Shown here: in pieces, positions 6,546 to 48,985 of the stretch
Layout: each line of letters opens with the position of its first letter
Position numbering within the stretch: position 1 is the first letter of the stretch
IMG/VR virus record: IMGVR_UViG_3300046739_000367
Coordinates: 1 to 60,776 of that record
Direction: 5' to 3' (one strand)
DNA: 60,776 nt
Origin: a virus
Lineage: Duplodnaviria; Caudoviricetes
Notes under the pieces: model-generated
What the model saw: the letters and a program-made list of their open reading frames with translations, nothing else
Databases searched by the model: none
Told to the model about the DNA's origin: nothing
Program-made: the position numbers and the translations under genes

Positions 6546-6550
6546 TCGTC

Positions 6551-6847: not shown

Positions 6848-6852
6848 TCAAC

Positions 6853-7424: not shown

Positions 7425-7432
7425 AGGCATTC

Positions 7433-31962: not shown

Positions 31963-32147
31963 GATGCCTTCTCCTTCGCTGAGAGCAGACGACGAAGCTT
32001 GTCGTCGAGGTCGGTTGTCGCCTGCGTGATCGCGAGGCGGATGTCGTCCTTGTGCTTCTCGAGGAACTGTGCCCCGAGAGGTGAGCATTCGTTGATGTGG
32101 ATGGTGACGTCGACTCCTGTCCCCATCACGTATCGTTGTGCTTTCAT
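31959..32147 (-). CDS. hypothetical protein
   Basis: Coupled on both sides. Confidence 0.5.
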   Translation of the reverse strand: MKAQRYVMGTGVDVTIHINECSPLGAQFLEKHKDDIRLAITQATTDLDDKLRRLLSAKEKAS

Positions 32148-34489: not shown

Positions 34490-35552
34490 CGTCGACGTAG
34501 TCCGGCTCGCGTTTGTCGTAGAGCCGGCGGCGGATCGGCGTGTCCTTCAGACAGACGTCGCGGTAGGGGCATGTGCCGTACCTGAAGCAGTTGTCCGTGT
34601 TCTTGTAGAAGACGGTCTTCCAGTCTTCGCCGGCCGCGACGCGTCGGAGCCGTTCCCGGAGCTCGTCGCAGAGCTCGATGAATTCGGCTTCGAACTCCCG
34701 GAGCTCGTCGACCGACCGGGTGAACATCTCACGCAGGAACTGAGGGACGATCGTCTTGACGAGGACGTCGATGATCGCTCCACGGATGAAGACCGGGTCG
34801 GCGTTCGGATCCCGCTTGCGGGCTTGCTCGGTGAGGTACTTCGTCAGCCCGTAGATGTACGACGAAAGCTGGTCGTCGAGCTCGTACTTCAGGAGGTCCC
34901 TCGGATCGTTTCGGCCTGCCGTCTTATAGTCGACGATGTAGAGCCCGCCTTTCGCCGTCGACAGGTTGTCTGTACGCCCGCGAAGGTAGGCGCCGGAATC
35001 GTCCGGGCCGACGGCAACGAGGAACTCGATCTCCTGGTTCAGAGGTTTCCAGACTTCGTCGGTGTCGGAGTAGTGCTTGATGTACGCGAGCAGAACGCGA
35101 GAGACGACCTCTTCCGCTTCGGGAAGCGACTTGTCCTCGAACGCCGTGTGGACTGTCTTCTTCAGCGACTTCCGGAGCGTCTGGATCGCGACATGGAGAG
35201 CCTGCTCCTGTGGTGATAGCGAGGCGATCTCACAGAGGGTGTCGTACTCATCCTGCTTCTCCGGGTCCGTAGGTGGTGTAGGAAAATCATGCTTAATATC
35301 GATCCCGCCAGCGTGGAAAGTAGCAAGGCCGGCATGAACGGCGGTACCAATCTCCAGAACGGAACGCTTACCAGGAGGAACAAGCTGTGGTAGCGAACGA
35401 AGGATGTCATCGGAAACCTCCGGGTTAAGGGCTTTGAGGATGTCGATGTACATCCCGAGCCGTTGCCAGGCGAAGTAGCGCTTGCAGTTGCGGAAGGCTT
35501 TCGCCGACGATTGGTTGAGGACGATCGGAAACTTCTTCGCGTGATCGATCAC
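34446..35552 (-). CDS. PD-(D/E)XK Cas4-like exonuclease
   Basis: C.R, GTAVH, GRTD...IVDYKT, QL..Y, C-terminal C....CPYRDVC. Confidence 0.88.
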   Translation of the reverse strand: MIDHAKKFPIVLNQSSAKAFRNCKRYFAWQRLGMYIDILKALNPEVSDDILRSLPQLVPPGKRSVLEIGTAVHAGLATFHAGGIDIKHDFPTPPTDPEKQDEYDTLCEIASLSPQEQALHVAIQTLRKSLKKTVHTAFEDKSLPEAEEVVSRVLLAYIKHYSDTDEVWKPLNQEIEFLVAVGPDDSGAYLRGRTDNLSTAKGGLYIVDYKTAGRNDPRDLLKYELDDQLSSYIYGLTKYLTEQARKRDPNADPVFIRGAIIDVLVKTIVPQFLREMFTRSVDELREFEAEFIELCDELRERLRRVAAGEDWKTVFYKNTDNCFRYGTCPYRDVCLKDTPIRRRLYDKREPDYVDDAHTKLIEEFTRVA

Positions 35553-36316
35553 TTGACCTCCGGTCCGTCGAGAAGACCGCTGTGAGCTTCGCAGAGGCCG
35601 GTGGTCTGAACGACGCCTCCGCGACAGTCTTCGTTGTTGTAGAAGCAGGTGTTGACGCCGTCACCCGGAGGAAGAGGCTCCGGGTGAGGCTTGTCCTTCC
35701 CGGTAATCTCCGAAACCGCATCCCGGACCCGACCATTCATCGGACGCACCAATCCCTGGAGAGGGACTTTGGTCACGCCATCTTTGCCGCGGAGCATGAT
35801 GGATGCTTTGATCATGCCGCCGAATCTCCGGAGTTGTAACCATCCCGCACTTCCTGCTAGGAGGTACGTGCCGATGAGGGTCGGGTCCGAGATGAAGTCC
35901 GTGTCGAACGAGGGAGGATCGTCCCGAGGCCAGAGTTCTTCTTGCAGAGGAGGCGTGCTCGGTTCGGGTGTGTCGTCTTCCTGGTAGGCTAGGCCCGTGA
36001 GGGCGATCGCCGAGAGGCCGGCAGTAACGTGGTCGATGTGAAGGTCGCACTCCAGGAAGCGGGCGGCAATCTGGCGTTCGCGGTAGCCGGTCCAGTGGTT
36101 GATCAGCCAGAGGAGGTATTCGCGAGCCTCCTCCGCGTTCCATCGTGCTGGGATGATGTGGACGCCGTACTGACGGAAGAGGGACGTTGCATCCTTCGGC
36201 GGTGCGAAGAACACGGTAAAGGCTGCGTCCTCGTCCTGACGGGGTTCGAGCCTCATCCAGAGACCGGGCATGTCCGATGACTCGACCCAGAGGTCGGCAC
36301 GCGAGCGCAAGTGCAT
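35549..36316 (-). CDS. hypothetical protein with a C-terminal Cys/His cluster
   Basis: Likely ATG at 36316; C...C...LCEAH. Confidence 0.5.
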   Translation of the reverse strand: MHLRSRADLWVESSDMPGLWMRLEPRQDEDAAFTVFFAPPKDATSLFRQYGVHIIPARWNAEEAREYLLWLINHWTGYRERQIAARFLECDLHIDHVTAGLSAIALTGLAYQEDDTPEPSTPPLQEELWPRDDPPSFDTDFISDPTLIGTYLLAGSAGWLQLRRFGGMIKASIMLRGKDGVTKVPLQGLVRPMNGRVRDAVSEITGKDKPHPEPLPPGDGVNTCFYNNEDCRGGVVQTTGLCEAHSGLLDGPEVK

Positions 36317-36356
36317 GAGAAGAGCCTCGTACTCCCACCAACACAGGTGGAGAACG

Positions 36357-36557
36357 TCAGTCGACGCTGGCGCGGTAGAACCTGGCGTCTTCTGCGATTT
36401 CTCGTTCATCGGTGTCTCCGTTGTCCTTGCACCACTCGAGGTATTCCTCCTTCGTCGCGGGTCCGAGAACGACGCCAACGACTTCCGCTCCGTCTCTGTC
36501 TCGAACGATCACGACGTGGGTCCCTGGCTTGATATCATCAAACGACCCGAAGATCAC
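36357..36557 (-). CDS. hypothetical protein
   Basis: GGAGG RBS, coupled. Confidence 0.5.
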   Translation of the reverse strand: MIFGSFDDIKPGTHVVIVRDRDGAEVVGVVLGPATKEEYLEWCKDNGDTDEREIAEDARFYRASVD

Positions 36558-36931: not shown

Positions 36932-37618
36932 TCACGCCGCGTACTTCGTCGGATCGACGTCGAACGCTTCGGCCATTGCTTCCTTGCGTTCGACGCACGT
37001 CCCGCACTTGCCGCAGTGGACGAACATACCGGTCTCGAACTGCGGGTCGTAGCAGGACCAGGTGAGCTCGACGGGCACGCGAAGGCCCTTGGCCCGCTTG
37101 GCGATGTCACCCTTGGTGATCGTGCCGAACGGAGCGTAGAGCGTGACGCGACCGTCCGTCGCCTTGAAGAGCGTCTGAGCGCAGCTCTCGTAGAACTCCG
37201 GACGGCAGTCCGGGTAGATCGTGTGGTCACCAGCGTGGGCCGCATACGCGACGACTTCGGCACCGATCGTCTCCGCGAGGGCGCCGGCCATAGCCAGCAG
37301 CATCATGTTGCGGTTCGGGACGATCGTCGTCTTCATGTTCTCCGCGGCGTAGTGACCGTGAGGGACGTCGACCTTTGCTCCTACCTGGGAGCTCTGAGCC
37401 CCAGCGAAGAGCGGGCCGAACGCGGCTGACAGGTTCAGCTGCTTGAAAGGAACGTCGGCGGCCGCGCAGATGATCTGGGCGTTCGTCATCTCGATCGCGT
37501 GTCGCTGTCCATAGTCGACGATGAGGGCAGTCGGTTCGAAGCCCTCGAACTTGAGTTGGTAGAGGAGGGTGGTTGAGTCGAGACCACCGCTCAAGAGACT
37601 GACTGCGCGCCTGCTCAT
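36932..37618 (-). CDS. queC: 7-cyano-7-deazaguanine (preQ0) synthase
   Basis: SGGLDS PP-loop, YGQRH, VPNRN, YPDCR, TWSCY, HCGKCGTCVER. Confidence 0.95.
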   Translation of the reverse strand: MSRRAVSLLSGGLDSTTLLYQLKFEGFEPTALIVDYGQRHAIEMTNAQIICAAADVPFKQLNLSAAFGPLFAGAQSSQVGAKVDVPHGHYAAENMKTTIVPNRNMMLLAMAGALAETIGAEVVAYAAHAGDHTIYPDCRPEFYESCAQTLFKATDGRVTLYAPFGTITKGDIAKRAKGLRVPVELTWSCYDPQFETGMFVHCGKCGTCVERKEAMAEAFDVDPTKYAA

Positions 37619-37660
37619 CTGTGAATGCTCCTTGTAGATCAAAGCCTTCGTCAGCTCAAC

Positions 37661-37687
37661 AAGAAAGGGGCGGTGAAGCCCCTTCCC
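37661..37687 (-). terminator. intrinsic terminator-like hairpin
   Basis: Minus strand GGGAAGGGGC-TTCACC-GCCCCTTTCTT, downstream of 37700..38131. Confidence 0.55.
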
Positions 37688-37699
37688 TGTCGCCACGTG

Positions 37700-38131
37700 C
37701 TACGCCGTCGGCTGTTCGGCGGGTGCCGCTGCCGGCTCGCCGGTCTTCGGGTCGAGCCCGAGCTCCGCCGCGCGGGCGAGAATCGCCTTGATGGACGCCT
37801 GGCGCTTCTGGTGGTACTCCTTCATCCGCGCCTTGACTTCCGGCTTCTGGTGGTAGGCCTTCATCTTGGCCTTCACCTCGGGCTTCGCGAGCCGCGCCTT
37901 GTTGTACGCGGTACGCTTCGCACGCTTCTCGTCGTACGCCGCCTTCTGCTCGTCGGTGAGCGCTGCGTACTCCTCCGCCGTGAGCGCCTTCTGGTACTGG
38001 TGGGGCTTGCCCTTCTGGCGCTCCTTCTGCTTGGCCTTGTCCGCGTTGATCTTCGCGAGCTGGGCCTTCACGTCGTCCACGCTCAGGCTGTTGACCTGGT
38101 CGCGGATCTGGTCGAGAATGTTTCCTGACAT
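37700..38131 (-). CDS. basic helical repeat protein (paralog family A)
   Basis: Repeated KPEVKA(K/R)MK(A/E)YHQK, ends ILARAAELG; own promoter and strong RBS. Confidence 0.7.
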   Translation of the reverse strand: MSGNILDQIRDQVNSLSVDDVKAQLAKINADKAKQKERQKGKPHQYQKALTAEEYAALTDEQKAAYDEKRAKRTAYNKARLAKPEVKAKMKAYHQKPEVKARMKEYHQKRQASIKAILARAAELGLDPKTGEPAAAPAEQPTA

Positions 38132-38177
38132 CTGTCTCTCCTTGTGTTAACGATTTCCGTGTTCCGATTGTAGACCT

Positions 38178-38206
38178 ATTATATCACAGATCACTTTCGC
38201 AATCAA
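38178..38206 (-). promoter_or_regulatory. sigma70-type promoter
   Basis: TTGATT-17 bp-TATAAT with TG extension. Confidence 0.85.
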
Positions 38207-38697
38207 CCCCCGTCTTTTGTTTTCAGGACCCCAATGAGGACGAGGTCGGTCAGAGTCCGGCGAATCGTGTCACGGGTGATTGCGAAGACGAGGGAGTTGT
38301 GTGAGGCACGGTTCCCGGCGACGTTGACGACGGCGACGTTCGTGTGTTCACGGAGATAGATCCCGAGCATACGTTCGGTGTAGTTCTCGAGGAGGTCCTT
38401 GCCCATGTTCTGGCAGGCTTTCCAGGTGCAGAGGTAGCCGCGGGAGCCGCTGTTCCCGAACCAGAGAGTGATGTCGGCCATTTGGACGTTGGCCCAGGTA
38501 CGGTCGGCGTAGTCGGCCGATGGATGCTCGAGCAGGCCGTAGGTGTCGCGGAGGGCGTAGTTAGGACCCGCTTCCGTCTTGTAGCCCTTGGGCGCCCATC
38601 CGCCGGTCTCGATGTTTGCCAGGCGGGCACCTTCCAGTCCGCCCTGGTCCGCTCCGGTCTGGCCTCCCGAGATCACGCGAAGGTCACGAGGTTTCAC
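38203..38697 (-). CDS. SLOG-superfamily protein (MoCo_carrier / cpYpsA-like)
   Basis: ISGGQTGAD..GL.......TGGWAPKG, RT..NV..AD.TL, NVAGNR. Confidence 0.8.
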   Translation of the reverse strand: MKPRDLRVISGGQTGADQGGLEGARLANIETGGWAPKGYKTEAGPNYALRDTYGLLEHPSADYADRTWANVQMADITLWFGNSGSRGYLCTWKACQNMGKDLLENYTERMLGIYLREHTNVAVVNVAGNRASHNSLVFAITRDTIRRTLTDLVLIGVLKTKDGG

Positions 38698-41600
38698 GGG
38701 AGTCCTCCGGAGCTCTACAGAGTTCGATCTCGTCGAGAAGACGGATGCTGTCGGTCAAGGTGTCCATGTTCTCGAAGTGCCCGGCGCCGTCGACCGTAAG
38801 AAGCGTGGGGCGGCCGTTGAGTAGGTAGACCGCGACGATACGCCGGGGAATGGACTTCCCCTTCGTGTAGCGGACGCTACGACCGAGAAGGTTGGTGACG
38901 ATCATCGGAGTTTCCTCCCGATCATGATGCCTAAACAGACCAGGCAGATGTCCCAGAAGAGGGCGCTCACGCGAGCCTCTTCGCGATGCGCTCGACCACC
39001 TTCTCAGCGAGACGGTCGAGGTCGATCGGGGTGAGACACTCGTTGACGAGGACGGTTTCGGCGTCTTCGAACCGACGGTACCCGGAACGGAAGAGGATGA
39101 TCTTTCCGTTCGACGCTTCGAGGCCGATGCCCCATCCACCGGATCCGTCTTCACGGATGACGTACTGGTAGGTCACTTCCGTCTCCTGTTCCGCTTACGA
39201 CTTGCCTTCTCCTGCTTGCGCTTCCGGTCCGAGCGGAACGCCTTCTTCGCGAAGCGTTCCGCCTTGTGGAGGGGAATCTCCCCGAGGGTGACACCTGCGA
39301 TGGCAGAGGCGATGCCGGAGGGCTTCCCGGCTTGACGCAGGATCGACGCCCTGTGCCTCATCGGCGGGGCAAGCTTCATCGCGTCGACGAACTGAGCCTT
39401 CTGCGACGGAGCAGCCGGGTCGAGCACGTCCTCTTCGAAGCTAACCTTAAGCTCGTCGGTGTCCGGGATCTTCTCGTCGTCACTCACCGGTGGTATCCTC
39501 CTTCATGACGTTGGCGTATATGGTGGCTTTCTCGATGGCCTTCTTCGTCGCGCTGATCGCGTGCTGCGCTTGCACGTGCATGTGCTCGAGGAGCCGTGGG
39601 AAATTCTTGCACGCTTGGATCTGGAGTTCGATGGGAGCCTCGCGAAGCGGGTACTGCATACCGTCGTACGCTTGCACGTAGAACTCCCACCGCTTGGACT
39701 CCTTGTTCCGGGAGTAGCCGAAGCGGAAGGGTGTCGCGCCTCGCGGGACCTCGATCGAGCACCGGATCCCGAGGTTCAGGGACCCGAGATTGAGCTCGAG
39801 CTGGGAAGCGGTGGCGAGGGATTCGCCGAGAGCCTCTTTCAGGTTCTCTGAGGCTTTCACGAGACGGTGTCCGAGGTCGGTGTAGTCCTTCACTTCCGCT
39901 CCTCCATCGGCGGGATGAGTCCGCCCCGTGCGAGAGCGTGGACGTAATTCGTGACAGCGATCTTCCGGAGTTCGACCGGCGTAGGAGACGGACTGTCGAC
40001 GAAGCGTGCGAGCATCCGATACTTCGTCTCGAGGTCCTCGTCGAGGAGCGTGTAGCGGAGAAGCTGCCAGTACGTGTCGGAGACCGCCAGCTTCACCTCG
40101 GCGTGCGAGTACGAGCCGAAGACGAGACGGTTCCAGTCGAGAGTCACAGTTTCCCGCCTTTGAGGACGGAGTAGACGTGCTCGGGGTCCGAGATTTCCTT
40201 GATCCGTTCACTGCCGTCGTCGGACTTGACGTCGAGCGAGACGGTCGAGCCCTCGTGGTCGAACTTCTCGAGGAGGTCGAGAAGCGGTTTGAATTCGGAC
40301 GATTCCGCCGTCCAGTAGGTGTCGCCGTCGACGCACCCGACGAAGAGTTCATATCTCATATCTTTTCCTCCGCCTGCAGCTTCGCTGTTGCGATCTTTAC
40401 GGGGCGTTCCCCGTACGTGTCGATGAGGTACCGGTAGAAGTAGTTGTCGTTCCGAACGATGTTGTCCGGGCCGTTGTACGGGGCGAGGCCGAGGAGCTTT
40501 CGAACGTCGTCTTCGAGCTTGGCCCAGTCGACGAGGACGCCTTTCAGCTCGTGGGTACCGATGTCTCGGCTCACAGCGCTTCCTTCCCGACGATGTACAT
40601 GACCGCACGAGATGTCGCTTCCAGCATCTGTCCGAGTCCGTTGCAGAGCTGGGTGCGGGCGGCGATCATCCGATCGTCGACCTTCTGCGAGAGCTGGAGC
40701 TCGAGGGCCTTCGCCCGTCGGTAGAGCACGTCGTTCTCCTGGCGGAGGCGCTCGACGCTTTCGACACTCGCCTGGAGCTGTTTCTCCAGCTCCTTCTTCG
40801 TCCACTTACGGGGTCGGAGCTTCTTCACGCTTCTCCTCCTTCTCGAAAACCTTGAACTCCATCCCCCAGAAGAAGATGTGGCAGGTCCCGGACCACTTGC
40901 CGGTGGCATCGTCCTGCCACAGGGAGATTTCACCGACCGGAGCCCACCAGGTTTTACCCTGAGGGCCGACCGGTCGCTTGATCGCGAGCTTGATGTCAGG
41001 GCGCTTCGCCGGCATCAGAGCCGCTCGAGCCGGACTTCGAACCCGTCTTCGGGACCCTCGTAGATGCTCTGGAGCATCTTGCCGACGAGTGAGTCCCAGC
41101 CGTCGGCGTGGTGCACGGTTTTCTTGACGTGGCCGTCTCCGTTCTGCGCGACGACCGTGAGACGCCACGGAAGGTCACGAGCGACTTTCTGTCCGACGGA
41201 CTCGGTGAGAACGTCCTTCGGCGAGCGTCGACGCTTCCGCCAGTAGGCTGTCATTCGCTTGGAGATCGCTTCCTTCGCTTCCGCCGAGAGACGACGTCTG
41301 CGACGTACCATTACTCTGCCTCCTCGAGCGACGCTGCTCGGATGTTAACGTGGGGGTTTCCGTCCGGTGCGTTTACCCACCGGACGATGACGACGGTTCC
41401 GTTGAACGGGCCGAAGACCTTTATGTCGACGTTCCGCCCGACCAACGGAGTGAGGACCTTCTCGAGTTCACGACGACGATTGTGAGCGTCTTCGAGCTGC
41501 TTCCTGAGGACGGAAGCCCGTTCGTCGAGCTCCGCGATCTCACGTTCGGTGACGAGCCATTTGTGGGCGTCACGCGAGTGGTCGGTCGACGTCATCAGCC

Positions 41601-42432
41601 GATCTCCTCGATCGTAATGCGGATGCGCTTCGCGGTGCGGAACGAAGGCTTCGGGATGTAGAACGACGGGTTGAACTTGTCGTCGACGCCGGTGGGACGC
41701 CCGTTCGGGAACCCCTCGAAGTTGAACCGCGTCGAGTGTTTGGGCTGGTCCCCTTCCTTCGGGACCATCGTAAACGTGAGAGATGTTGACACACTGACTC
41801 CTTTCAGTTTGGATATATTATATCACAGTTCTTCGAAAAAGTCACCTACGTCCTTTGAGCTGGTCGACTTCGGTGCGGAGACGTAGGATCCACGAGACCG
41901 CGTCGGCGTTGTCGGAGCGAGCACGGATGAGTTCGGACCGGAGGTCGTCGACGGAAAGGGACGAGACGTCGAGGCGCGTTGTTGCAGTCCCCTCGAGAAT
42001 GGAGATTTGACGAACGTGTTCGTTGCGAAGACGTTCAAGGTGCGTGACCTTGTCCTTGAGCTCGATGATCTTGCGTTCGACGACTTCGAAACGGTCGGTG
42101 CCGCCGGTCTTCGTCTCCCAAGCGTCGAGCAGGCCGCGCACTCGCATGTACGCGTCGTGGAGTTCCTTGTTCGCCTTCTCGTACGCTTCGCGCTGGGACT
42201 CGGCCTTCTGAAGATGGTGAGTCGTCTGCAGGAGCTTCAGTACGCGAGGCGGGAGGTCCGTCGAGTCCCAGAGATGACGGATCTGGAACTCGTCTGCCTC
42301 GCGCGAGATCATCACGTGGCACTCGCCGACGGAGTCCCGGAAGAACTCGAGGAGAGCTTGCTGCTTTGATGTCTCCGCCGCGAGCCGACGGTTCTCGTTC
42401 ACGAGCTCTTCGTATGACGGAGTATCAGACAC
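38684..42432 (-). other. array of about 13 short, translationally coupled hypothetical early genes (e.g. 38967-39176, 39173-39487, 39480-39893, 39890-40147, 40144-40359, 40356-40574, 40571-40828, 40806-41015, 41015-41311, 41311-41595, 41595-41792, 41842-42432)
   Basis: Consecutive minus-strand ORFs with GGAGG-type RBS and mostly 1-4 nt overlaps. Confidence 0.65.
41817..41845 (-). promoter_or_regulatory. sigma70-type promoter
   Basis: GTGACT-17 bp-TATAAT with TG extension. Confidence 0.7.
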
Positions 42433-42925
42433 CAGAGGCCTCCTCCTGCGAGAGCACCCACTTGAGGTCTTGGAGGGCCTGATCGACGTTCTTATACTGG
42501 ATGAACGTACCGCCGGCTTTGACCCACGGCTGAATGTACTTCGCCCAGTCGTCGATCAGGATGTCGCCGGGTCGCGCGTGCTTGTACTTCTCACGGGACG
42601 CGGTGCAGATGACTTGGAAGAGGCCGAGGTGCTCTCGGACCCATTGCGTCTTCTGTTCGCAGGCTCCCTTGATCATTGGCATCCCGGTGAGGACGACGGG
42701 AGTGGGACACACTTCGCGGATCCCGTCCCAGAGACGGTGCATTTCTGGCATCTCTGGAAGCGCCGCGAAGAAGTTGCCGTGGTGGGCAATCGCCCGCCAG
42801 AGGCCGATCGGCTCGTTGTCTCGGGAGGTCTTGATCCCGAGGAGATGCTCGGCGCCCTTGTCGAAGTCGGCGAGGACTCCGTCAAGGTCGACGAAGACGC
42901 GGGGCGTACTACGAACGTGAGCCAC
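42425..42925 (-). CDS. HAD-family 5'(3')-deoxyribonucleotidase-like protein
   Basis: VFVDLDGVLADF, LTG, K..W, ILIDD. Confidence 0.85.
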   Translation of the reverse strand: MAHVRSTPRVFVDLDGVLADFDKGAEHLLGIKTSRDNEPIGLWRAIAHHGNFFAALPEMPEMHRLWDGIREVCPTPVVLTGMPMIKGACEQKTQWVREHLGLFQVICTASREKYKHARPGDILIDDWAKYIQPWVKAGGTFIQYKNVDQALQDLKWVLSQEEASGV

Positions 42926-43321
42926 GGGTCACCTTCTTCGGCGGGACGCCCGCCTGGATCCAGTGGACGAGGGCCTGACGACAGGATTGGCAGAGGCCGA
43001 ACTCCGCGCCTGTGTTCGTCGTCGACGACCCGTGATCCGGGAAGGTAACGAGGATCGGCGTGCTGAGGAAGGCTTCGTCGGTCCCCGTGTTCTTGCATCG
43101 GTCGCAGTGGTATGTGATCATTCCGTAATTCCTTTCTTCAGCTCTTCAGCGGCGAGACGTAGAAGCTTCATGAGAATTGGGTCGTGGAGGTCGAGCCGGT
43201 GTAATGTTGCACATCTCCGGCACTTCCGCCAGCCATGGTCGAGGGCGTTCACTCCCTGTTCGTGCCCTCCGTAGATCGTACGAAGAAGGAAGATCACGTC
43301 TCGCCGTTCGTCGAGAGTCAC
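42909..43321 (-). other. two small Cys-containing hypothetical genes (42909-43121, 43118-43321)
   Basis: Coupled ORFs with CxxC motifs. Confidence 0.5.
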
Positions 43322-43527
43322 AGGTCGATCCCGAGCTCACGGGCGCGTCGACGGATCTCTTGTTCCATCGTCCGTTGAATCTGTTGGCGAGTGAGCGGAC
43401 GCGTTGCTTCACGTGCACGGATGATCCTTTCGTTGAACTCCTGCGGGAGCAACGGCTCCCCGAAGTCGAAGTTCGTAATCGCTTCCTTGAGTGCGTCAGG
43501 GTTCACGAACGATGTCTGGATGGGCAT
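43318..43527 (-). CDS. hypothetical protein ending RRARELGIDL (family A-like)
   Basis: C-terminal motif shared with 37700..38131 and 50644..50898. Confidence 0.5.
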   Translation of the reverse strand: MPIQTSFVNPDALKEAITNFDFGEPLLPQEFNERIIRAREATRPLTRQQIQRTMEQEIRRRARELGIDL

Positions 43528-44584
43528 TTCGGTCCCTCAGTTGGTATTCGTCATGGAAATTGGCTTTGTCCCTCCACGTCTTCTCGTCACCGAGGAGGTA
43601 TGTGCGCATCGTAATGGCCCAGTCATACGTGTTCTGCTCGACCGTGTTGTCACGGGAGTGGATGCAGACGTACTTCGGACCTTCGGGAGTGAGGTCGACG
43701 ATCGCACGCGTGTTCGGATACCAGATGTAGGCGTGCTCGGCTGTAAAGAAGTAGAAGGCTTTGCCTGCGTAGACTTTGTCGTGCAGGCGGGAGTCGATTT
43801 CTTTCAGGAGGCGGCGAGCGCGCTCCGGAGCATCCGGCTCCATCGTGTGACGGCGATTGTCGTACGCGTGGCGACCGAGTCGACGGTTGTAGTCGTAGTC
43901 GAAGACTGCTTCAGCAGCACGTCCAACCGGTCGGGCTGCGCGAGCAGCGTTCGCCGCATCGATCGCACGGAATCGACGGATTGCATCGAGAGTCATGCGG
44001 CGGTCGAAGTAGACTTCAGGCTCCGGCTTGACCGCGAGACGAACGTACGTCGCCAGGTTCTGCGCGACTTCGACGTAATCTTCTTCGGTGAGGTCCTTCG
44101 GTACGAGTACGTTGAACCGACGGACCAGTGGCAGAGCCGTGTCCGGAATCGCGAAGAAGTCGTAGTGTGTCGCGTCGTGGTTCGCTACTTGAACGTAGCG
44201 GGCTGCCATTCGCAAGTCCTCCTGTGTCTTGAGTTCGACGAGGGGAGGCGGCTCCGGAGGTGGAGCTGGATCCCAGAAACCTTGAATCGTAAACGCGCGG
44301 CGAATGTTGTTGTCGAGGTCCAGAGCGTGGTTCACCAACTGATCCCACAGAGGACCGTCTACGTCCGTGAGTTCGTCGTAGATGACGAATGCTGGATCAG
44401 CACCCCGGATCTGTGCGTAGGTGCGATCGACTTCGTTCGAGAGGTCGACTCCGTGGATCTCGATCGCGACTGCATCCTGCACTGTCTCGATGTCGAGAGT
44501 CACGCGCTGCCAGCCTTCTTGGTCAGCCGGTCCGAGAGCACGACCGATAACGACGTTAGGATCGTTCGGATCTCGAACCGGCAT
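43496..44584 (-). CDS. hypothetical protein with a C-terminal single-Cys domain (partner of the GG-terminated protein)
   Basis: Starts 6 nt after the Ubl-like stop; C-terminal ERARRLL...YVCIH...D...L..DE..W...ANFH. Confidence 0.65.
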   Translation of the reverse strand: MPVRDPNDPNVVIGRALGPADQEGWQRVTLDIETVQDAVAIEIHGVDLSNEVDRTYAQIRGADPAFVIYDELTDVDGPLWDQLVNHALDLDNNIRRAFTIQGFWDPAPPPEPPPLVELKTQEDLRMAARYVQVANHDATHYDFFAIPDTALPLVRRFNVLVPKDLTEEDYVEVAQNLATYVRLAVKPEPEVYFDRRMTLDAIRRFRAIDAANAARAARPVGRAAEAVFDYDYNRRLGRHAYDNRRHTMEPDAPERARRLLKEIDSRLHDKVYAGKAFYFFTAEHAYIWYPNTRAIVDLTPEGPKYVCIHSRDNTVEQNTYDWAITMRTYLLGDEKTWRDKANFHDEYQLRDRNAHPDIVREP

Positions 44585-44590
44585 GACTAC

Positions 44591-44782
44591 TTACCCGCCT
44601 ACGAGCGGCGCGAGGGCAAGAACCTCCGCGTCGGGACGAACGCCGTTGAGCGAGCGAACCCGCTCATCGTCGACGAACATGGCGTAGCCCGACTTCACGA
44701 GCTTGTCGAACTCCGCCTGGATGTCCGTCTCGGTGGAACACATCGTCGTGTGCCCCGTGCGATCGAGAACGTGCAGCTTCAT
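44591..44782 (-). CDS. small ubiquitin-like / ThiS-MoaD-like protein with a C-terminal Gly-Gly
   Basis: 63 aa, strong AAGGAGG RBS, ends DAEVLALAPLVGG-stop. Confidence 0.65.
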   Translation of the reverse strand: MKLHVLDRTGHTTMCSTETDIQAEFDKLVKSGYAMFVDDERVRSLNGVRPDAEVLALAPLVGG

Positions 44783-45256
44783 CTACTCACCTCCTTCGTC
44801 TTCTGTTACAGCCCGCAGGAGACGCGCGAGGACAGGGTCTTCGCTTGCGTGCTCCGCGGCGACTTCCAGGACACGCTTCTGCTTGTCAGCGTATCTTTGT
44901 TGAGCCGCCTTCATCTTGTCGCGGTTCGCAGCGCGCCACCGCTTCATGTATTCTTTGGTCCCGGCTGGCACCCCGAAGGCGGAGCGCCTACGCGCATCGC
45001 CATTCGACGCCTTCGTTGCTAGGCCGACGTTCGCGAGCATCTCGTTCCGGTAGTTGCCGTCAACCCAGAACGGGAACTGATCTTCCTCCCACCCGGTTGC
45101 GTACTTCCGTCGTGCGAGTACGTCAAGGACCGGCGCTGTCGTTCCGTCATGCATCACTGCGATGCGACTCTTCTTGAAGTCGCTACGCGCCGTGAGCGGC
45201 TCGAGAAACTCTCGTGCTTGCTCCAGCAGGAACGGCTCTGTCATGCTCTGTAACAT
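44783..45256 (-). CDS. hypothetical protein with a basic KEYMKRWRAANRDK helix
   Basis: First gene after the 45283 promoter. Confidence 0.55.
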   Translation of the reverse strand: MLQSMTEPFLLEQAREFLEPLTARSDFKKSRIAVMHDGTTAPVLDVLARRKYATGWEEDQFPFWVDGNYRNEMLANVGLATKASNGDARRRSAFGVPAGTKEYMKRWRAANRDKMKAAQQRYADKQKRVLEVAAEHASEDPVLARLLRAVTEDEGGE

Positions 45257-45282
45257 CCTACACGTTGTGCCTGATTATTGCT

Positions 45283-45311
45283 ATTATATAACAAACAACA
45301 TTGAAAATCAA
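45283..45311 (-). promoter_or_regulatory. sigma70-type promoter
   Basis: TTGATT-17 bp-TATAAT. Confidence 0.85.
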
Positions 45312-45327
45312 CGACCGTCATTTGTTA

Positions 45328-45657
45328 TCAGTGACTCCAGTGGTGAGTCACGTAGTAGACGTACCCGATTCCCCAGAACAGCAGGCCGATCCCGTAGAGC
45401 GCTGCGACAGCGAGACCGGCGATTTTCAAGAACGTGGAGAACCGCTTTGAGATTCTCCCCTCGTCGCTTCGCACGCTCCCGCCCTTCGCCATGGGAGTGT
45501 ACGACCGTGCCAGCAACTCCTCAACGCTCTCCGTTTTTGCCTTAGCCGGGGTTTCCGCGACCGGCTCTGCCGGCGGAAGGCCGAGGGCGGCGGCTGCGTT
45601 AGGATTCTTCCGGACGAACGCGTCGATATCCTTCTGCGTCTTGAGTCGGAGTGCCAT
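45328..45657 (-). CDS. membrane protein with a C-terminal TM segment
   Basis: IAGLAVAALYGIGLLFWGIGYVYYV. Confidence 0.6.
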   Translation of the reverse strand: MALRLKTQKDIDAFVRKNPNAAAALGLPPAEPVAETPAKAKTESVEELLARSYTPMAKGGSVRSDEGRISKRFSTFLKIAGLAVAALYGIGLLFWGIGYVYYVTHHWSH

Positions 45658-45951
45658 TTAGTGCTTCGAAGTCGGGTCCGCCGGCTTGATATTCATCCCG
45701 CTGATCTCGACGAGATGGTCGAAGAAGTCGGCGAGGTTCCGGAGCATGTTCGCCTTGACCGGCGGAGTCGCGTGAACGAAGACGTAGCGGATTGCGTTGA
45801 CGAGGGCAGCGGTGATCTGTGCGGCCTCGAAGTGCGGAGCACGTTGCTCCAGGAAGATCGAGAGGTCGTCGAGGAGCGGCTTGATCTCCTCGGCTGTGAC
45901 CGGCGACTCGAGCGTCACCGTCCGGTTAGGCGTTTCGTCGCTTGAGCTCAT
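45658..45951 (-). CDS. hypothetical protein
   Basis: GGAGG RBS. Confidence 0.55.
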   Translation of the reverse strand: MSSSDETPNRTVTLESPVTAEEIKPLLDDLSIFLEQRAPHFEAAQITAALVNAIRYVFVHATPPVKANMLRNLADFFDHLVEISGMNIKPADPTSKH

Positions 45952-46546
45952 TCACCCTCCTGTCAACGTGGAGAAGCGTGTCTCCGGTTACCGTCGCTGT
46001 GAGGCCGCGTTCCTGAAGAGCGACCATCCAGGCGTGCGTATGCTGCTTGCTCTTGCTCCGGAGGAGTGCACGCCCGACGTCATCCTTCGGGAAGGAGTCC
46101 CAGTCGAGTTCGAGCAGGTCGAGCTGGTCCTCGTCGACTCCGTCCATCAACTGGAAGGCGTCGGCTCGGACTTCGGGCGTTGCCGGAGCCCCGATCGGCT
46201 TGTTCACGCGAGTACCGTCGAGCTGTTCCTGGAGCGCTCGGATGTTCGCCGCTTTCGTCTTGCCCTCGTCGGAGAGGTAGCGCTCGATCCGATCGAGGAA
46301 TTCGAAGAGGCCGGAGCCGTTCACCTGCCACCGGCACTGATCGATGCCGAATTGGTAGACCTTCCCGCCGAACTCCCGCTCGAGTTCGTTCGCAAGGGCG
46401 GAGCCGAAACGTAGGTTGATCATGAGGTTGATCCGCTTCCCCATGACATGGGCCTTGCCCTTCTCCTCGAAGACGAAGGCGGCTCGGACGAGGCGCCACA
46501 TGTGACGCTCTGCGTCAGTCGGAATGGACGGTTGTTGCTCAGTCAT
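45926..46546 (-). CDS. degenerate LAGLIDADG-fold DNA-binding protein, probably leaderless
   Basis: AAFVFEEKG in place of LAGxxDGEG; L...FGGKV....RWQV.G....FL..I..YL...K. Confidence 0.55.
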   Translation of the reverse strand: MTEQQPSIPTDAERHMWRLVRAAFVFEEKGKAHVMGKRINLMINLRFGSALANELEREFGGKVYQFGIDQCRWQVNGSGLFEFLDRIERYLSDEGKTKAANIRALQEQLDGTRVNKPIGAPATPEVRADAFQLMDGVDEDQLDLLELDWDSFPKDDVGRALLRSKSKQHTHAWMVALQERGLTATVTGDTLLHVDRRVNELKRRNA

Positions 46547-46553
46547 TATTTGT

Positions 46554-46582
46554 ATTATACCACAAAGTGCTTTGAAAATCAA
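46554..46582 (-). promoter_or_regulatory. sigma70-type promoter (predicted +1 at or next to the ATG at 46546)
   Basis: TTGATT-17 bp-TATAAT with TG extension; ATG 7 nt downstream, no RBS. Confidence 0.8.
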
Positions 46583-46587
46583 CGACG

Positions 46588-46703
46588 TGTTTCATGTTCT
46601 TTGGGGCCGGATTTACCCTTCTTATATTAATCTTTTTGTATTTTTCTATTAATACTTACATACTAGTTATATAACACAGCCCCGATAACAATAACATGAA
46701 ACA
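46588..46703. other. AT-rich island bounded by 11-bp inverted repeats (candidate replication origin)
   Basis: TGTTTCATGTT (46588-98) and AACATGAAACA (46693-703) flank the most AT-rich tract of the genome. Confidence 0.5.
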
Positions 46704-47165
46704 TCAGACATCAAGCCTTCGGCCGCCCGCGCGTAGCGTATCGCGCACTTCCATCAGGAGCGTGCCGAGGACGTTCTGTTTGGGGGTGCGCAGGCACTTC
46801 ATGCAGTCGCAAGCGCCCCAGAAATTGTCGTGCCAGTAGTTGCCCTCGACGAGTTCAGCGGAGCCGGTACGGAGAAGCTTCGAAGCCATCTCCGAGTCCG
46901 GCGCGAACTTCCGTTCGAGGAGCGTACGCATGATGCCGACTTTGACGGTGTCCCAGTCTCGACGGAGGCGTACCGCTCGTCCTCTCTGCTTCGCGAGACG
47001 GGGTGACGGGAGCACTTCGAAGACCCGGCGCACCTGCGGGTCCTCGCTCTTCGCCGCTTGATACGCGTGCTCTACCGTCGGGTACATCCTCCCGTCGAAC
47101 TCCACGGGTGTAGGCGCGAAGTTCGACAGGAAGTAGTGGTAGTTCGAGAACGAGACGATTCTCAT
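46704..47165 (-). CDS. NADAR (YbiA) family hydrolase
   Basis: FLSNF..TP....Y.TVEHAYQAAK, AK..GR...R.DW...K...M....KF, LL.TG..LVEGN..D.FWG, N.LG..LM.VR. Confidence 0.93.
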   Translation of the reverse strand: MRIVSFSNYHYFLSNFAPTPVEFDGRMYPTVEHAYQAAKSEDPQVRRVFEVLPSPRLAKQRGRAVRLRRDWDTVKVGIMRTLLERKFAPDSEMASKLLRTGSAELVEGNYWHDNFWGACDCMKCLRTPKQNVLGTLLMEVRDTLRAGGRRLDV

Positions 47166-47530
47166 CGACGCGTACGAGTACGGTGAACGGTGGAGTGCGA
47201 CGAGGACTTCCCTCCGGTCCTCTTCTCGTGGGCGTGGACCACAATCTCCATCCCGTTCGCTTGGAGCACGGTGTGGATCCTGTGTGCCTCGATCACGGTC
47301 GCCGTCACGTTCGTCAGCGTCTGCGCCTTCGCCGTGCTCTTGCACGTGTACGTCCCGTTCGCTTGGAGCGCGCACGTCACCCGAGACGCCGGAAGCATGA
47401 AGATGTCGGCGTTGCCGGCCACCTCCCCGACGGTGGGTCCGCTGAACGTCCCTCGCAGAGTGCTGCTTTGGGCGTTTACGCCGACGGGAAGGGTGCATGC
47501 GAGAGCGGCGCACCATAGTATGTTCCTCAT
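47162..47530 (-). CDS. exported protein with a signal peptide (VNA|QS)
   Basis: MRNILWCAALACTLPVGVNA|QSSTLRGT. Confidence 0.55.
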   Translation of the reverse strand: MRNILWCAALACTLPVGVNAQSSTLRGTFSGPTVGEVAGNADIFMLPASRVTCALQANGTYTCKSTAKAQTLTNVTATVIEAHRIHTVLQANGMEIVVHAHEKRTGGKSSSHSTVHRTRTRR

Positions 47531-47700
47531 TCTTCCACCAGATCGATGACAACGGTCTCCGCGTCTTCTGGGATATCCAGAGACACATATGCAGGTTCCC
47601 CTTCGAAGTCGCCGTCGTGCATGGAGGGCCTGTCGAACGTCGTTTCCTCGCCCGTAAGCTCGCCTCCAGCGTCGTAGAACCCGACTTTCAGCTTCTTCAC
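47527..47700 (-). CDS. small acidic hypothetical protein
   Basis: GGGAG RBS + GTG. Confidence 0.5.
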   Translation of the reverse strand: MKKLKVGFYDAGGELTGEETTFDRPSMHDGDFEGEPAYVSLDIPEDAETVVIDLVEE

Positions 47701-48677
47701 CGTGTTCTCCCTTCTGCCAAGTGTCGGAGCAGATGCTCCCGCTCCAGCGCCTCTCGACTCCGCACTTGCTCCACGACTGCGGAGAATGCCGCGCCAACCG
47801 CCTCCCGTGCCTGGTCGGGCGTCAGCTCGCTTGATTCGACCTTCGTCTCGGACATCGGAATCGGGCACGGCTCCTCCTGTGTTGCAGCGGCTTCGGATTG
47901 CGCACTCGCGTGGCGCAGTCGCATGTGCATCTCTGCTTCGGCGGCCTCGGAGCACTCGTCCGGGAGTTGGCTCTGGGGCGTCCCTGCCTCGTGCGGAGCC
48001 TTCTGGACAACGGGGACGGTCCCGATTTCGGGTGTGCCCAGAGGGATGTGGGGGAGATTGTAGTTCATGGCGCAGATGGGACCGTAGCCCACTTGCACGG
48101 AGCCCTCGTCCGTCAACGGCAGGTTGCAGAACGTGCAGCGGCCCGTGAGTGCGGCGTAGGTGTGAGCTGCTAGCGCCGGGTTCTTCTCGACCTCGCGCAA
48201 CGCGTCGAGGAGGTCCTTCCGGAACTTCAGGTCGTGAGTGACGTCGCCGCGAGGCGAGATCGTTCCCCGGAAGACTCCGTTCACGGTGACGACGATGTGC
48301 GAGGGATACGTCGCGTGGGTGACCTTGTTCAGCTTCAGCTTCATCTCACCGCCCTTCGGGGCGAGGAAGCGAAGCTTCGGCTCCACCAGGCCGTTCTCCC
48401 GGGCCTGTGCCAGGAACTCGGCGAGTGCGAGGAGCGGTTCGACGCTCTCGACCGCTGGACTCGACGCCACCGTCGACTCGAACGGACGTTGGTACGTCTG
48501 CGCAGCTGCTACGGGCGTCGCACCTTGCGGGCCATCCACGCGTAGCTCCCTCGGCGGGCAGGTGACGTGTGTGGTGATTCGGGTGTCCCTGTCCCAGTCG
48601 ATCTGTTGGCCTGGGGCGATTGCCCCGTCGCACGTTCCACATCGACCAGGGTAGCGAGCGGCCATCCGCTTCTTCAC
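47697..48677 (-). CDS. DUF6011-like Zn-finger protein
   Basis: ARYPGRCGTC..I..G N-terminus; GRCTFCNLPLTD..S...GYGPICA. Confidence 0.7.
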   Translation of the reverse strand: MKKRMAARYPGRCGTCDGAIAPGQQIDWDRDTRITTHVTCPPRELRVDGPQGATPVAAAQTYQRPFESTVASSPAVESVEPLLALAEFLAQARENGLVEPKLRFLAPKGGEMKLKLNKVTHATYPSHIVVTVNGVFRGTISPRGDVTHDLKFRKDLLDALREVEKNPALAAHTYAALTGRCTFCNLPLTDEGSVQVGYGPICAMNYNLPHIPLGTPEIGTVPVVQKAPHEAGTPQSQLPDECSEAAEAEMHMRLRHASAQSEAAATQEEPCPIPMSETKVESSELTPDQAREAVGAAFSAVVEQVRSREALEREHLLRHLAEGRTR

Positions 48678-48985
48678 AGATGCTCCTCCTTCGTCGTCCC
48701 CCACTTCGGAGCGACGACGGCGCTGATGCCGAACGACGACATCCGCTCTGCGTTTTGCTGGCACCAGACTTCAGCGTCCACGCCCTTCGGCGCCTCGAAC
48801 TCGAGCACCTCCGGCATGGCATCGTTTCCGGTGTACTCACGGAGCACGCGAACGTGCCCCATATACCGGAGTTGCTCGACCCAGACGCCGGCGAGGTGGT
48901 TCTTCGGGTAGTGTGTCTTGTCTTCGAAGTTCACGACGCGAACCGTCGGCACTCTCTTCACCGACACCTCCTGAATTGTTGACCT

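What the first reader, a model, noticed from the sequence alone, without database searches (positions are those of the whole stretch)
43496..44782. Phage-encoded ubiquitin-like protein (C-terminal Gly-Gly) adjacent to a single-Cys partner: a candidate conjugation or decoy system
Seen: a 63-aa ORF with a strong RBS ends ...DAEVLALAPLVGG-stop. Six nt later a 362-aa ORF begins, whose only Cys lies in a C-terminal ~95-aa segment (ERARRLL...KYVCIH...YD...YLLGDEKTWRDKANFH). Both lie downstream of the 45283 early promoter. Known: an exposed hydrophobic-P-x-x-G-G C-terminus is the hallmark of ThiS/MoaD/SAMP/ubiquitin-type proteins that are adenylated by E1/ThiF enzymes, and bacterial defence systems (Bil, type II CBASS) use E1/E2 chemistry against phages. 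Inference: this is either a two-gene module that borrows a host E1 and passes the Ubl to the partner Cys (E2-like), or a decoy that saturates host ubiquitin-like defence. I saw no E1 or JAB gene in the genome, and no thiamine or molybdopterin context that would explain a sulfur carrier.
Basis: partly seen in the sequence, partly recalled or inferred. Interest (0 to 1): 0.85.

Follow-up and report, generated by a model that had tools for sequence, protein, structure and literature searches.

The report
Phage ubiquitin-like protein with cysteine partner
An uncultured soil phage carries a conserved two-gene unit, a tiny ubiquitin-shaped protein that always ends in Gly-Gly and a partner predicted to hold that tail beside its one invariant cysteine, which looks like a protein-tagging or sulfur-transfer pair with no activating enzyme of its own.

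Summary
ORF 44591..44782(-) encodes 63 aa ending LAPLVGG-stop behind AAGGAGGTG. Six nt later ORF 43496..44584(-) encodes 362 aa with a single Cys, C307.

Both are real genes. 22 of 24 listed natural variants in the partner gene are synonymous in the minus frame, against 3 of 24 in the antisense 543-aa shadow ORF.

All 30 aligned small-protein homologs end [AV]LAP[LI]VGG-stop. C307 is invariant in 28 of 28 partner homologs. The two genes abut in all 6 readable contigs, from 4 lineages.

The small protein models as a beta-grasp, and two independent fold searches return almost only ubiquitin, SUMO, ISG15 and TtuB-type chains at weak scores.

A complex prediction supports binding: ipSAE 0.82 against 0.00 for the best control. 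The tail pairs with the strand after C307.

No E1/ThiF or JAB occurs in three complete phage genomes. No family library names either protein.

Verdict: an undescribed phage Ubl plus Cys-partner module. E2 identity, covalent chemistry and biological role remain untested.

The parts
45283..45311 (-). Sigma-70-like promoter (TTGATT, 17 nt, TATAAT) upstream of the operon
   Evidence: 10 of 12 hexamer matches. 4 such sites in 41500-46800 against a mean of 1.2 in shuffles. This is a consensus match only.
44783..45256 (-). Upstream 157-aa gene of unknown function; its stop abuts the start of the small gene
   Evidence: PHROG 34302 and 14214 (unknown function), E about 5e-6. A homolog sits upstream of the pair in L003. 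7 of 8 listed natural variants fall on codon position 3.
44788..44796 (-). Ribosome-binding site AAGGAGGTG of the small gene
   Evidence: read directly from the sequence.
44591..44782 (-). 63-aa ubiquitin-like (ThiS/MoaD-type) beta-grasp protein ending ALAPLVGG-stop
43496..44584 (-). 362-aa partner protein: variable N-terminal extension, middle alpha/beta domain and C-terminal Cys domain
   Evidence: Only 28 representatives were found among 1.84 billion proteins. No Pfam, PHROG, NCBIfam or PADLOC match. 22 of 24 listed natural variants are synonymous.
44210..44584 (-). N-terminal extension (residues 1 to about 125), absent from most relatives, with a diversified patch at about residues 55-101
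   Evidence: present only in the window protein, P0005 and P0006. pLDDT below 50. Another metagenome carries an in-frame 138-to-135-nt replacement at 44281..44420.
43937..44209 (-). Middle alpha/beta domain (residues about 126-216), conserved in the family
43529..43852 (-). C-terminal domain (residues 245-352) predicted to bind the small protein; order helix, four strands, two helices
   Evidence: One search gives the secondary structure. One search gives interface residues 245-263, 307-312 and 314-342. 10 of the 17 invariant or near-invariant residues lie in the interface, hypergeometric p = 1.3e-5.
43664..43666 (-). Codon of Cys307, the only Cys and invariant in the family
   Evidence: 28 of 28; residue 307 is in the interface; 308 and 310 pair with tail residues 60 and 58.
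43318..43527 (-). Downstream 69-aa gene overlapping the partner's 3' end by 32 nt; position kept in relatives
   Evidence: 24-27% identity to the genes in the same position in L002 and L003. No family match.

Best explanation
This is a phage-specific, translationally coupled two-protein module. The 63-aa protein is a ThiS/MoaD/ubiquitin-type beta-grasp with a free C-terminal Gly-Gly. The C-terminal domain of the next protein binds it and lays the LAPLVGG tail as an extra strand along residues 308-312, so the terminal glycines sit next to the invariant Cys307 and the invariant or near-invariant polar residues D312, N318 and D321.

The most likely mechanism, which is inferred and not shown, has three steps:
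1. A host E1-like adenylyltransferase (MoeB, ThiF or MoeZ type) adenylates the tail, because the phage has none.
2. The acyl group passes to Cys307 as a thioester, as on an E2.
3. It is then transferred to a host or phage target early in infection.

Shown here: real genes, the conserved pair, the beta-grasp fold class, the invariant GG and Cys, a predicted complex, and the absence of a phage E1 or JAB. Inferred: activation, thioester formation, transfer and target.
For: - Terminal GG: 30 of 30 homologs end [AV]LAP[LI]VGG-stop. The divergent lineage ends LAPLAGG-stop.
- C307 is invariant in 28 of 28. N318 and D321 are invariant and D312 is nearly so.
- Gene order, with 1-nt overlap to 6-nt spacing, is kept in 6 of 6 readable contigs from 4 lineages.
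- Complex prediction: ipSAE 0.82 against 0.00 for the best of 3 controls. That mark was reached by 116 of 157 solved complexes and 2 of 215 mismatched pairs. The runs agree in 100% of contacts and the partner chain's pLDDT is 91. My own alignments were used, so these counts hold only roughly.
- The least-error pairs 310:58, 312:58, 310:60 and 308:60 indicate antiparallel pairing, which puts residues 61-63 at 305-307.
- Invariant residues concentrate in the interface: 10 of 17 in the partner (p = 1.3e-5) and 11 of 15 in the small protein (p = 1.8e-4).
- There is no invariant His. This fits E2-type Cys/Asn/Asp chemistry better than a Cys-His protease.
- The C-domain order of helix, four strands and helices is that of the UBC/RWD fold. 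The order comes; the fold's topology is recalled.
- E1-like ThiF genes were found in 14 of 14 control genomes, so a host activator is generally available.
Against: - No ThiF or Prok-JAB match at E <= 1 in three complete phage genomes. Activation would therefore depend on an unidentified host enzyme.
- No Pfam, PHROG, NCBIfam or PADLOC family matches either protein. For the window pair this was tested in all four libraries; all members of both families were scanned against Pfam only. That covers ThiS, UQ_con and the Prok-E2 models.
- hhalign of the small-protein profile against E. coli MoaD and ThiS aligns the tails in register but is not significant: E 0.12 and 0.27.
- No conserved HPN motif. 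The Cys sits at the end of strand 4, not about 15 residues after it.
- Fold searches with the whole partner model gave no E2 match, although the C-domain was barely tested.
- The single-chain models are of low confidence: pLDDT 60 and 54.
Confidence: 0.38

Rival explanations
1. Non-covalent heterodimer. The small beta-grasp is simply a tightly bound subunit or regulator of the partner. The Gly-Gly end is conserved because only small residues and a free carboxylate fit the pocket, and Cys307 is structural. The complex would act early in infection by binding, not by chemistry.
For: Almost all invariant surface residues of both proteins lie in the mutual interface. No E1, JAB or sulfur-mobilising gene is present in the phages. 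Translational coupling fits stoichiometric subunits.
Against: An exact stop after GG in 30 of 30 homologs, plus three AGG-ended contigs, together with an invariant lone Cys beside it and invariant N318 and D321, is more than packing usually demands. Known GG-ended beta-grasp proteins that bind partners through their tails (MoaD, ThiS, TtuB, ubiquitin) are all chemically activated; this point is recalled knowledge.
Confidence: 0.25
2. Sulfur-carrier pair with MoaD-MoaE or ThiS-ThiG logic. A host E1 and persulfide relay convert the Gly-Gly end to a thiocarboxylate. The partner then uses it, with Cys307 as an acyl-disulfide or persulfide site, to thiolate a small molecule or nucleotide. This could be linked to the phage's 7-deazaguanine pathway.
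For: The tail resembles MoaD: PDAEVLALAPLVGG against DGDEVAFFPPVTGG, aligned in register. ThiS aligns over 34 columns. The small-gene-then-partner order with coupled translation is like moaD-moaE. TtuB and Mth1743 are among the fold matches. QueC, a PP-loop ATPase, lies 0.7-6 kb downstream of the pair in 4 of 4 lineages, and FolE, QueD and QueE are in the window.
Against: The partner shows no similarity to MoaE. No sulfur-transfer family matched the window partner in four libraries, or any of its 28 aligned relatives in Pfam. No cysteine desulfurase, rhodanese or Moco/thiamine gene is in the window. The hhalign matches are not significant. The QueC linkage may only reflect common descent of these phages. 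A search for '7-deazaguanine', 'phage' and 'MoaD' together found no paper.
Confidence: 0.15
3. Counter-defence trap or decoy. The pair mimics the Ubl (and E2) of host ubiquitin-like defence systems (Bil, type II CBASS, Bub) and titrates or poisons their E1 or E2.
For: The pair sits directly behind early-type promoters. Both families were seen only in phage or metagenome contigs. Neither was found in two scans of one genome for each of 185,579 prokaryote species or in 50,697 GenBank phage records. Bacterial Ubl defence pathways do exist (abstracts of PMC10557695 in the listing and of PMC11601596).
Against: No PADLOC defence-protein model matches the window Ubl, the window partner or two of the three other partner homologs scanned; the third, P0019, has only a chance-level DrmMII match, E 0.023. 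In the model the tail is occupied by the phage's own partner. The tail is invariant across phages of 51-62% GC, which fits one universal interactor better than diverse defence E1s. Literature searches found no phage-encoded anti-Bil Ubl.
Confidence: 0.12
4. Not a functional unit: chance ORFs, or the real gene is the 543-aa ORF on the opposite strand.
For: A 543-aa ORF (43391..45022, +) with GC3 of 0.69 spans the region and outscored the minus-strand ORFs in my crude GC3-based gene picker.
Against: 22 of 24 listed natural variants are synonymous in the minus frame, against 3 of 24 in the + frame. Homologs with 19-93% identity and in-frame indels exist for the minus-strand proteins. All neighbouring genes from 21562 to 52185 are on the minus strand.
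Confidence: 0.02

Closest known systems
ThiS / MoaD / CysO / TtuB / Urm1 / SAMP sulfur carriers and modifiers (Pfam PF02597 and relatives)
   Same: Small beta-grasp. The acidic-[IV]-hydrophobic-x-x-P/hydrophobic-x-G-G tail ends exactly at Gly-Gly and aligns in register with E. coli MoaD and ThiS. TtuB and Mth1743 are among the fold matches. The gene abuts that of the protein that binds its tail, as in moaD-moaE.
   Different: No significant sequence match to PF02597 or to MoaD or ThiS (E 0.12 and 0.27). No E1, MoaE, ThiG or other cofactor gene nearby. The N-terminal LDxTGH motif is invariant. The setting is a phage early operon.
E2/UBC-fold conjugating enzymes, including the bacterial E2-like proteins of Ubl-E1-E2-JAB operons (Iyer, Burroughs and Aravind 2006, PMC1779556; passages read)
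   Same: An invariant Cys with invariant Asn and Asp. The domain order of helix, four short strands and helices is as in the UBC/RWD fold (order; the fold's topology is recalled). It is predicted to hold a Ubl tail at the Cys. One clade has a His two residues after the Cys; notes a conserved His C-terminal to the Cys in some bacterial E2-like proteins.
   Different: No match to UQ_con or Prok-E2 profiles. No HPN motif. The Cys sits at the end of strand 4. There is no E1 or JAB partner gene. The fold itself was not confirmed.
Bacterial ubiquitin-like antiphage pathways: type II CBASS Cap2/Cap3, Bil, Bub (abstracts seen: PMC10097602 and PMC10557695; 10.1101/2023.09.04.556158; PMC11601596)
   Same: A prokaryote-world Ubl with a reactive C-terminus working with a Cys-type (or Ser-type) carrier protein in phage-host conflict.
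   Different: Those are host operons that always encode their own E1 and usually a deconjugating peptidase. This unit is phage-borne, has two genes and lacks an E1 and a peptidase. No PADLOC model matches the pair.
[quoted passage not shown]
   Same: A phage-encoded ThiS/MoaD-related beta-grasp with a conserved C-terminal glycine.
   Different: TAPI lies in the tail-assembly cluster, is fused to a C-terminal domain through a Gly-rich linker and is flanked by JAB/NlpC peptidase genes. This protein stands alone, ends at GG, lies in the early/replication arm and has no JAB.

Membership tests
Ubiquitin-like beta-grasp (ThiS/MoaD/Ub superfamily) | Beta-grasp fold (strand-strand-helix-strand-strand) | tested here: met
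Ubiquitin-like beta-grasp (ThiS/MoaD/Ub superfamily) | Gly-Gly at the mature C-terminus | tested here: met
   30 of 30 aligned homologs end VGG-stop. The divergent lineage ends AGG-stop.
ThiS/MoaD family (Pfam PF02597) | Significant sequence match to the family profile or to its members | tested here: not met
   No PF02597 match at E <= 10 for 6 of 6 members scanned. hhalign against E. coli MoaD gave E 0.12 and against ThiS E 0.27. A PDB profile search found nothing.
ThiS/MoaD family (Pfam PF02597) | Cognate E1-like adenylyltransferase (ThiF/MoeB) in the same operon or genome | tested here: not met
   PF00899 was found in 0 of 3 complete phage genomes at E <= 1, while 14 of 14 control genomes gave a match. 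There is no ThiF hit among 82 window ORFs.
ThiS/MoaD family (Pfam PF02597) | C-terminal adenylation or thiocarboxylate formation | not testable with these tools
   Needs mass spectrometry of the expressed protein.
E2 / UBC-fold conjugating enzymes | UBC fold (N-terminal helix, four-strand meander, C-terminal helices) | tested here: inconclusive
   The secondary-structure order H252-273, E277-280, E285-288, E295-297, E305-307, H314-331, H334-340 fits. Fold searches on the whole model were filled by the middle domain and barely tested residues 245-362.
E2 / UBC-fold conjugating enzymes | Invariant catalytic Cys | tested here: met
   C307 is present in 28 of 28 aligned family members.
E2 / UBC-fold conjugating enzymes | HPN motif upstream of the Cys and a match to UQ_con or Prok-E2 profiles | tested here: not met
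   There is no conserved HPN. 'YPN' occurs in only some members of one clade, 17 residues before the Cys. No Pfam match at E <= 10 for 28 of 28 members.
E2 / UBC-fold conjugating enzymes | Thioester with the Ubl C-terminus | not testable with these tools
   The model only places the tail beside the Cys.
Molybdopterin synthase (MoaD-MoaE) | Large subunit homologous to MoaE, in a Moco gene context | tested here: not met
   hhalign of A4 against E. coli MoaE gave E 0.83 over 17 columns. There are no Moco genes in the window.
Bacterial Ubl defence operons (Bil, CBASS type II, Bub) | E1, E2 and deconjugating peptidase encoded together; match to defence-protein models | tested here: not met
   No PADLOC match for the window Ubl, the window partner or two of the three other partner homologs scanned. 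The third, P0019, has only a chance-level DrmMII match, E 0.023. No ThiF or Prok-JAB in the three phage genomes.
Phage TAPI (lambda gpI) Ubl | Sits in the tail-assembly cluster next to the JAB/NlpC protein TAPK; Ubl fused to a C-terminal domain | tested here: not met
   The gene lies in the minus-strand early/replication arm, about 24 kb from the tail genes. There is no JAB and no fusion.

The most novel reading that the evidence does not exclude
Phages carry a minimal ubiquitin-like conjugation system of their own. A GG-ended Ubl and a new type of E2-like Cys protein hijack the host's housekeeping sulfur-carrier E1 (MoeB, ThiF or MoeZ) to tag host or phage proteins early in infection. The variable N-terminal extension of the partner would serve as the target-recognition part. 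This would be the first Ubl-E2 pair in a bacterial virus, and an E1-parasitic one.
Probability: 0.22. Interest if true: 0.9.

Novelty: new variant of a known kind. Interest (0 to 1): 0.7.

Why it matters
Ubiquitin-like conjugation in the prokaryotic world is so far described as a host activity: sulfur carriers, SAMPs, TtuB, and the CBASS, Bil and Bub defence pathways. It is always described together with an E1.

If a phage-borne, E1-less Ubl plus Cys-protein pair is chemically active, phages would also use ubiquitin-type chemistry, probably by parasitising a host E1. That would add a new family of tail-binding Cys proteins. Both families are absent from Pfam, PHROGs, NCBIfam and PADLOC.

The question is directly testable with two small genes. 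Even the non-covalent reading would define a new, tightly co-evolving phage protein pair.

Tried and rejected
- DNA search of the region against GenBank phages and protein searches of both proteins there: no match.
- Scans of one genome for each of 185,579 prokaryote species with the A7 and A2 alignments: no relative, so no prophage copy or host clue.
- PDB sequence-profile searches with A1 and A2: none at E <= 10.
- ESM Atlas. Partner C-domain: no usable hit by features, and TM <= 0.39 by structure. Small protein: the best named cluster is 'ThiS family' at 0.79, which is chance level.
- Pup mimicry was considered and rejected. Pup ends GGQ or GGE and is disordered (recalled), whereas this protein ends GG and folds.
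- A Cys-His protease or deubiquitinase reading was rejected, because no His is invariant in the partner and the Ubl needs no processing.
- I tried to obtain prokaryotic E2 reference sequences for a profile-profile test. The route through the genome search needs a G handle that a virus or a W record does not give, so the test was not done.
- Expression: no RNA holder was listed among 18 runs.
The length-unlimited HMM search for the partner found only proteins of 63-361 aa and no fusions.
- Literature searches found no description of this pair. Supplements were not consulted.
- Alignments A5 and A4 were too diverse for pattern scans. The closer alignments A6 and A7, and then A2, were used instead.
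Full report
**What the window is.** The window is a complete virus record of 60,776 bp with direct terminal repeats and about 60% GC.
- Structural genes lie on the + strand at both ends.
- A long minus-strand arm (about 21.5-52.2 kb) carries replication and nucleotide genes. These include a PolA fused to a UDG-superfamily domain, a DUF3987 primase/helicase, a ligase, a PD-(D/E)XK exonuclease, a Sak4-like protein, an NT5C-type deoxyribonucleotidase, FolE, QueD, QueE, QueC, a cpYpsA SLOG protein and a NADAR protein.
- The terminase is about 33% identical to those of Arthrobacter phages, and Microbacterium, Arthrobacter and Streptomyces phages are the commonest hosts among the 127 matching records. 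An actinobacterial host is therefore a weak inference.
- Near-identical DNA occurs in soil and rhizosphere metagenomes from several studies.

**The observation.** It is correct as written.
- ORF 44591..44782(-) encodes 63 aa ending ...DAEVLALAPLVGG-stop, with AAGGAGGTG seven bases upstream.
- After a 6-nt spacer, ORF 43496..44584(-) encodes 362 aa with a single Cys at residue 307.
- A sigma-70-like site lies at 45311..45283(-).

**Are these genes?** A 543-aa ORF on the opposite strand (43391..45022) overlaps everything, and a crude GC3-based gene picker preferred it. Natural variation settles the question.
- In contigs from other metagenomes laid on the region, 21 of the 24 listed differences inside the partner gene fall on codon position 3 of the minus frame.
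- 22 of 24 are synonymous there, against 3 of 24 in the + frame. The tool did not show 19 further differences.
- The two amino-acid changes are R360H and D357N, in the unconserved tail.
- Indels are in frame: a 3-nt deletion and a 138-to-135-nt replacement.
- In the upstream 157-aa gene, 7 of 8 listed variants are at position 3.

**Families.** Neither protein matches Pfam, PHROGs, NCBIfam or PADLOC or any PDB sequence.
- Small protein: a profile search of 5.8 billion proteins, limited to lengths of 33-116 aa, gave 29 clusters.
  - In the 30-row alignment A7 (those 29 plus the L002 copy), every sequence ends [AV]LAP[LI]VGG-stop.
  - D7, G10, H11, F25, L28, G32, Y33, A34, F36, L57, A58, P59, V61, G62 and G63 are invariant.
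- Partner: an HMM search of 1.84 billion representatives gave only 28 proteins at E <= 0.001. All are 63-361 aa and none carries an added domain.
  - Alignment A4 has 28 rows: the window protein, P0005-P0010, P0012-P0031 and P0033.
  - I left out P0011, a near-duplicate of P0010, and the fragments P0032, P0034 and P0035.
  - A252, L259, F277, Y278, L298, P303, C307, V315, N318, D321 and W322 are invariant. A256, L260, I287, D312, A341 and N342 are nearly so.
  - H309 is not conserved; it is Tyr or another residue in the divergent branch.
- Most relatives lack the window protein's first 125 or so residues.

**Pairing.** Wherever DNA could be read, the small gene is followed at once by the partner (6 of 6 contigs, four lineages).

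| Contig | Junction |
|---|---|
| window | 6-nt gap |
| L002 | 2-nt gap |
| L003 | 3-nt gap |
| L004, L011, L012 (one divergent lineage) | TAATG overlap |

- The lineages range from 51% to 62% GC.
- Matching contig lengths for P0006 and P0053 (2,548 nt) and for P0010 and P0038 (2,490 nt) suggest two more pairs. This is an inference.
- Neither family was found in one genome for each of 185,579 prokaryote species or in 50,697 GenBank phage records.

**Fold of the small protein.** AlphaFold2 on four sequences gave a low-confidence model (pLDDT 60) with the order strand-strand-helix-strand-short helix-strand.
- Foldseek's 50 best PDB matches are all ubiquitin, SUMO, ISG15 or UBX chains: E 1e-2 to 5e-2, prob 0.77-1.0, TMq 0.43-0.59.
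- The scores are weak, but both methods agree on the fold class. The chain reaches pLDDT 91 in the complex.
- hhalign places the tail in register with E. coli MoaD (PDAEVLALAPLVGG against DGDEVAFFPPVTGG) and aligns 34 columns with ThiS. Neither is significant, at E 0.12 and 0.27.
- The protein is therefore a Ubl of the ThiS/MoaD style by fold and tail. It is not a demonstrable member of PF02597.

**The partner.** The whole-chain model is poor (pLDDT 54), but residues 130-215 and 250-345 reach 60-88.
- The C-terminal domain has the order helix 252-273, strands 277-280, 285-288, 295-297 and 305-307, then helices 314-331 and 334-340. Cys307 ends the fourth strand.
- That order is the order of the UBC/RWD fold as I recall it.
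- No HPN motif is conserved.

**The complex.** ESMFold2 was run with my alignments on partner residues 125-362 plus the small protein.
- ipSAE was 0.83, 0.82 and 0.82, against 0.00 for all three controls.
- The mark was reached by 116 of 157 solved complexes and 2 of 215 mismatched pairs. Because my own alignments were used, these counts hold only roughly.
- The runs agree in 100% of contacts, and the partner chain's pLDDT is 91.
- The interface uses partner residues 245-263, 307-312 and 314-342, and small-protein residues 4, 6-11, 34, 36, 39-41, 55 and 57-63.
- The least-error pairs 308:60, 310:58, 310:60 and 312:58 indicate that the tail adds an antiparallel strand after Cys307. This would put V61 to G63 next to residues 305-307. 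I infer that; no distances were returned.
- Invariant residues pile up in the interface: 10 of 17 in the partner (p = 1.3e-5) and 11 of 15 in the small protein (p = 1.8e-4).
- The prediction supports binding but does not show it.

**What is missing.** ThiF/E1 (PF00899) and Prok-JAB (PF14464) give no match at E <= 1 in any of the three complete phage genomes, whereas the controls respond. The Pfam scans of 82 window ORFs show no E1, JAB, E2, cysteine desulfurase, rhodanese, thiamine or molybdopterin gene.

**Interpretation.** The conserved, translationally coupled pair, the strictly terminal Gly-Gly, the lone invariant Cys modelled beside it and the invariant Asn and Asp around it point to chemistry at the C-terminus.
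- I rank an E2-like acyl transfer after activation by a host MoeB, ThiF or MoeZ-type enzyme first, at about 0.38.
- Rivals: a purely non-covalent heterodimer (0.25), a sulfur-carrier/sulfurtransferase pair (0.15) and a trap for host ubiquitin-like defence (0.12).
- Main weaknesses of the leading reading: no activating enzyme is known for the pair, the E2 fold is unconfirmed, and almost all conserved surface is consumed by the mutual interface.
- QueC lies 0.7-6 kb downstream of the pair in all four lineages. That may reflect shared ancestry and not a functional link.

**Comparison with known systems.**
- Described bacterial Ubl pathways encode their own E1. I saw the abstracts of PMC10097602 and PMC10557695 in the listing, of 10.1101/2023.09.04.556158 in the listing and of PMC11601596.
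- The known phage Ubl, TAPI, sits with JAB/NlpC peptidases in tail-assembly clusters (passages of PMC1779556).
- Five literature searches found no account of this pair.
It agrees with my reading but is not independent evidence.

Noticed in passing
window 28897-29949, 30586-31506, 31525-32160, 36932-37696 (all -): There is a full preQ0 gene set: FolE with a 170-aa N-terminal extension, a QueE-like radical SAM protein, QueD and QueC. This implies 7-deazaguanine DNA modification, yet no TGT/DpdA match was found in any of the three related phage genomes. The unassigned 309-aa ORF at 35549-36478, between the exonuclease and QueC, is a candidate divergent DpdA.
   Followed up: partly
window 37696-43496; L002 4556-5566; L003 about 5693-8229; L004 829-2346: QueC lies 0.7-6 kb downstream of the Ubl-partner pair, on the same strand, in all four lineages. 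I could not tell a functional link from shared ancestry.
   Followed up: partly
window 44281-44420 (partner residues about 55-101): The partner's N-terminal extension holds a localised diversified patch. A contig from another metagenome is nearly identical on both flanks but carries an in-frame 135-nt replacement here, matching P0005. This could be a recombination patch or a target-recognition region.
   Followed up: partly
window 43391-45022 (+): A 543-aa antisense shadow ORF spans the upstream gene, the Ubl and the partner, with GC3 of 0.69. A GC3-based gene picker chose it over the real genes. Variant analysis shows it is not coding.
   Followed up: yes
window 43318-43527 (-): A 69-aa gene overlaps the partner's 3' end by 32 nt. 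Weakly similar genes (24-27% identity, starting MP..T..P..L) hold the same position in L002 and L003. It may be a third member of the module.
   Followed up: partly
window 25924-28611 (-): A family A DNA polymerase is fused to an N-terminal uracil-DNA-glycosylase-superfamily domain.
   Followed up: no
window 46704-47588, 38203-38697, 47697-48764 (all -): The same early arm carries a NADAR-domain protein, a circularly permuted YpsA SLOG protein and a DUF6011 protein. These are nucleotide or ADP-ribose-linked conflict-type domains.
   Followed up: no
window 5095-6105 (+): A Glyco_trans_1_2 glycosyltransferase gene sits inside the virion structural module, right after the tail-terminator gene.
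   Followed up: no
L003 4695-4724: A near-consensus promoter (TTGAAA, 18 nt, TATAAT; read by eye) lies directly upstream of the Ubl gene in the relative. This fits early expression of the pair.
   Followed up: no
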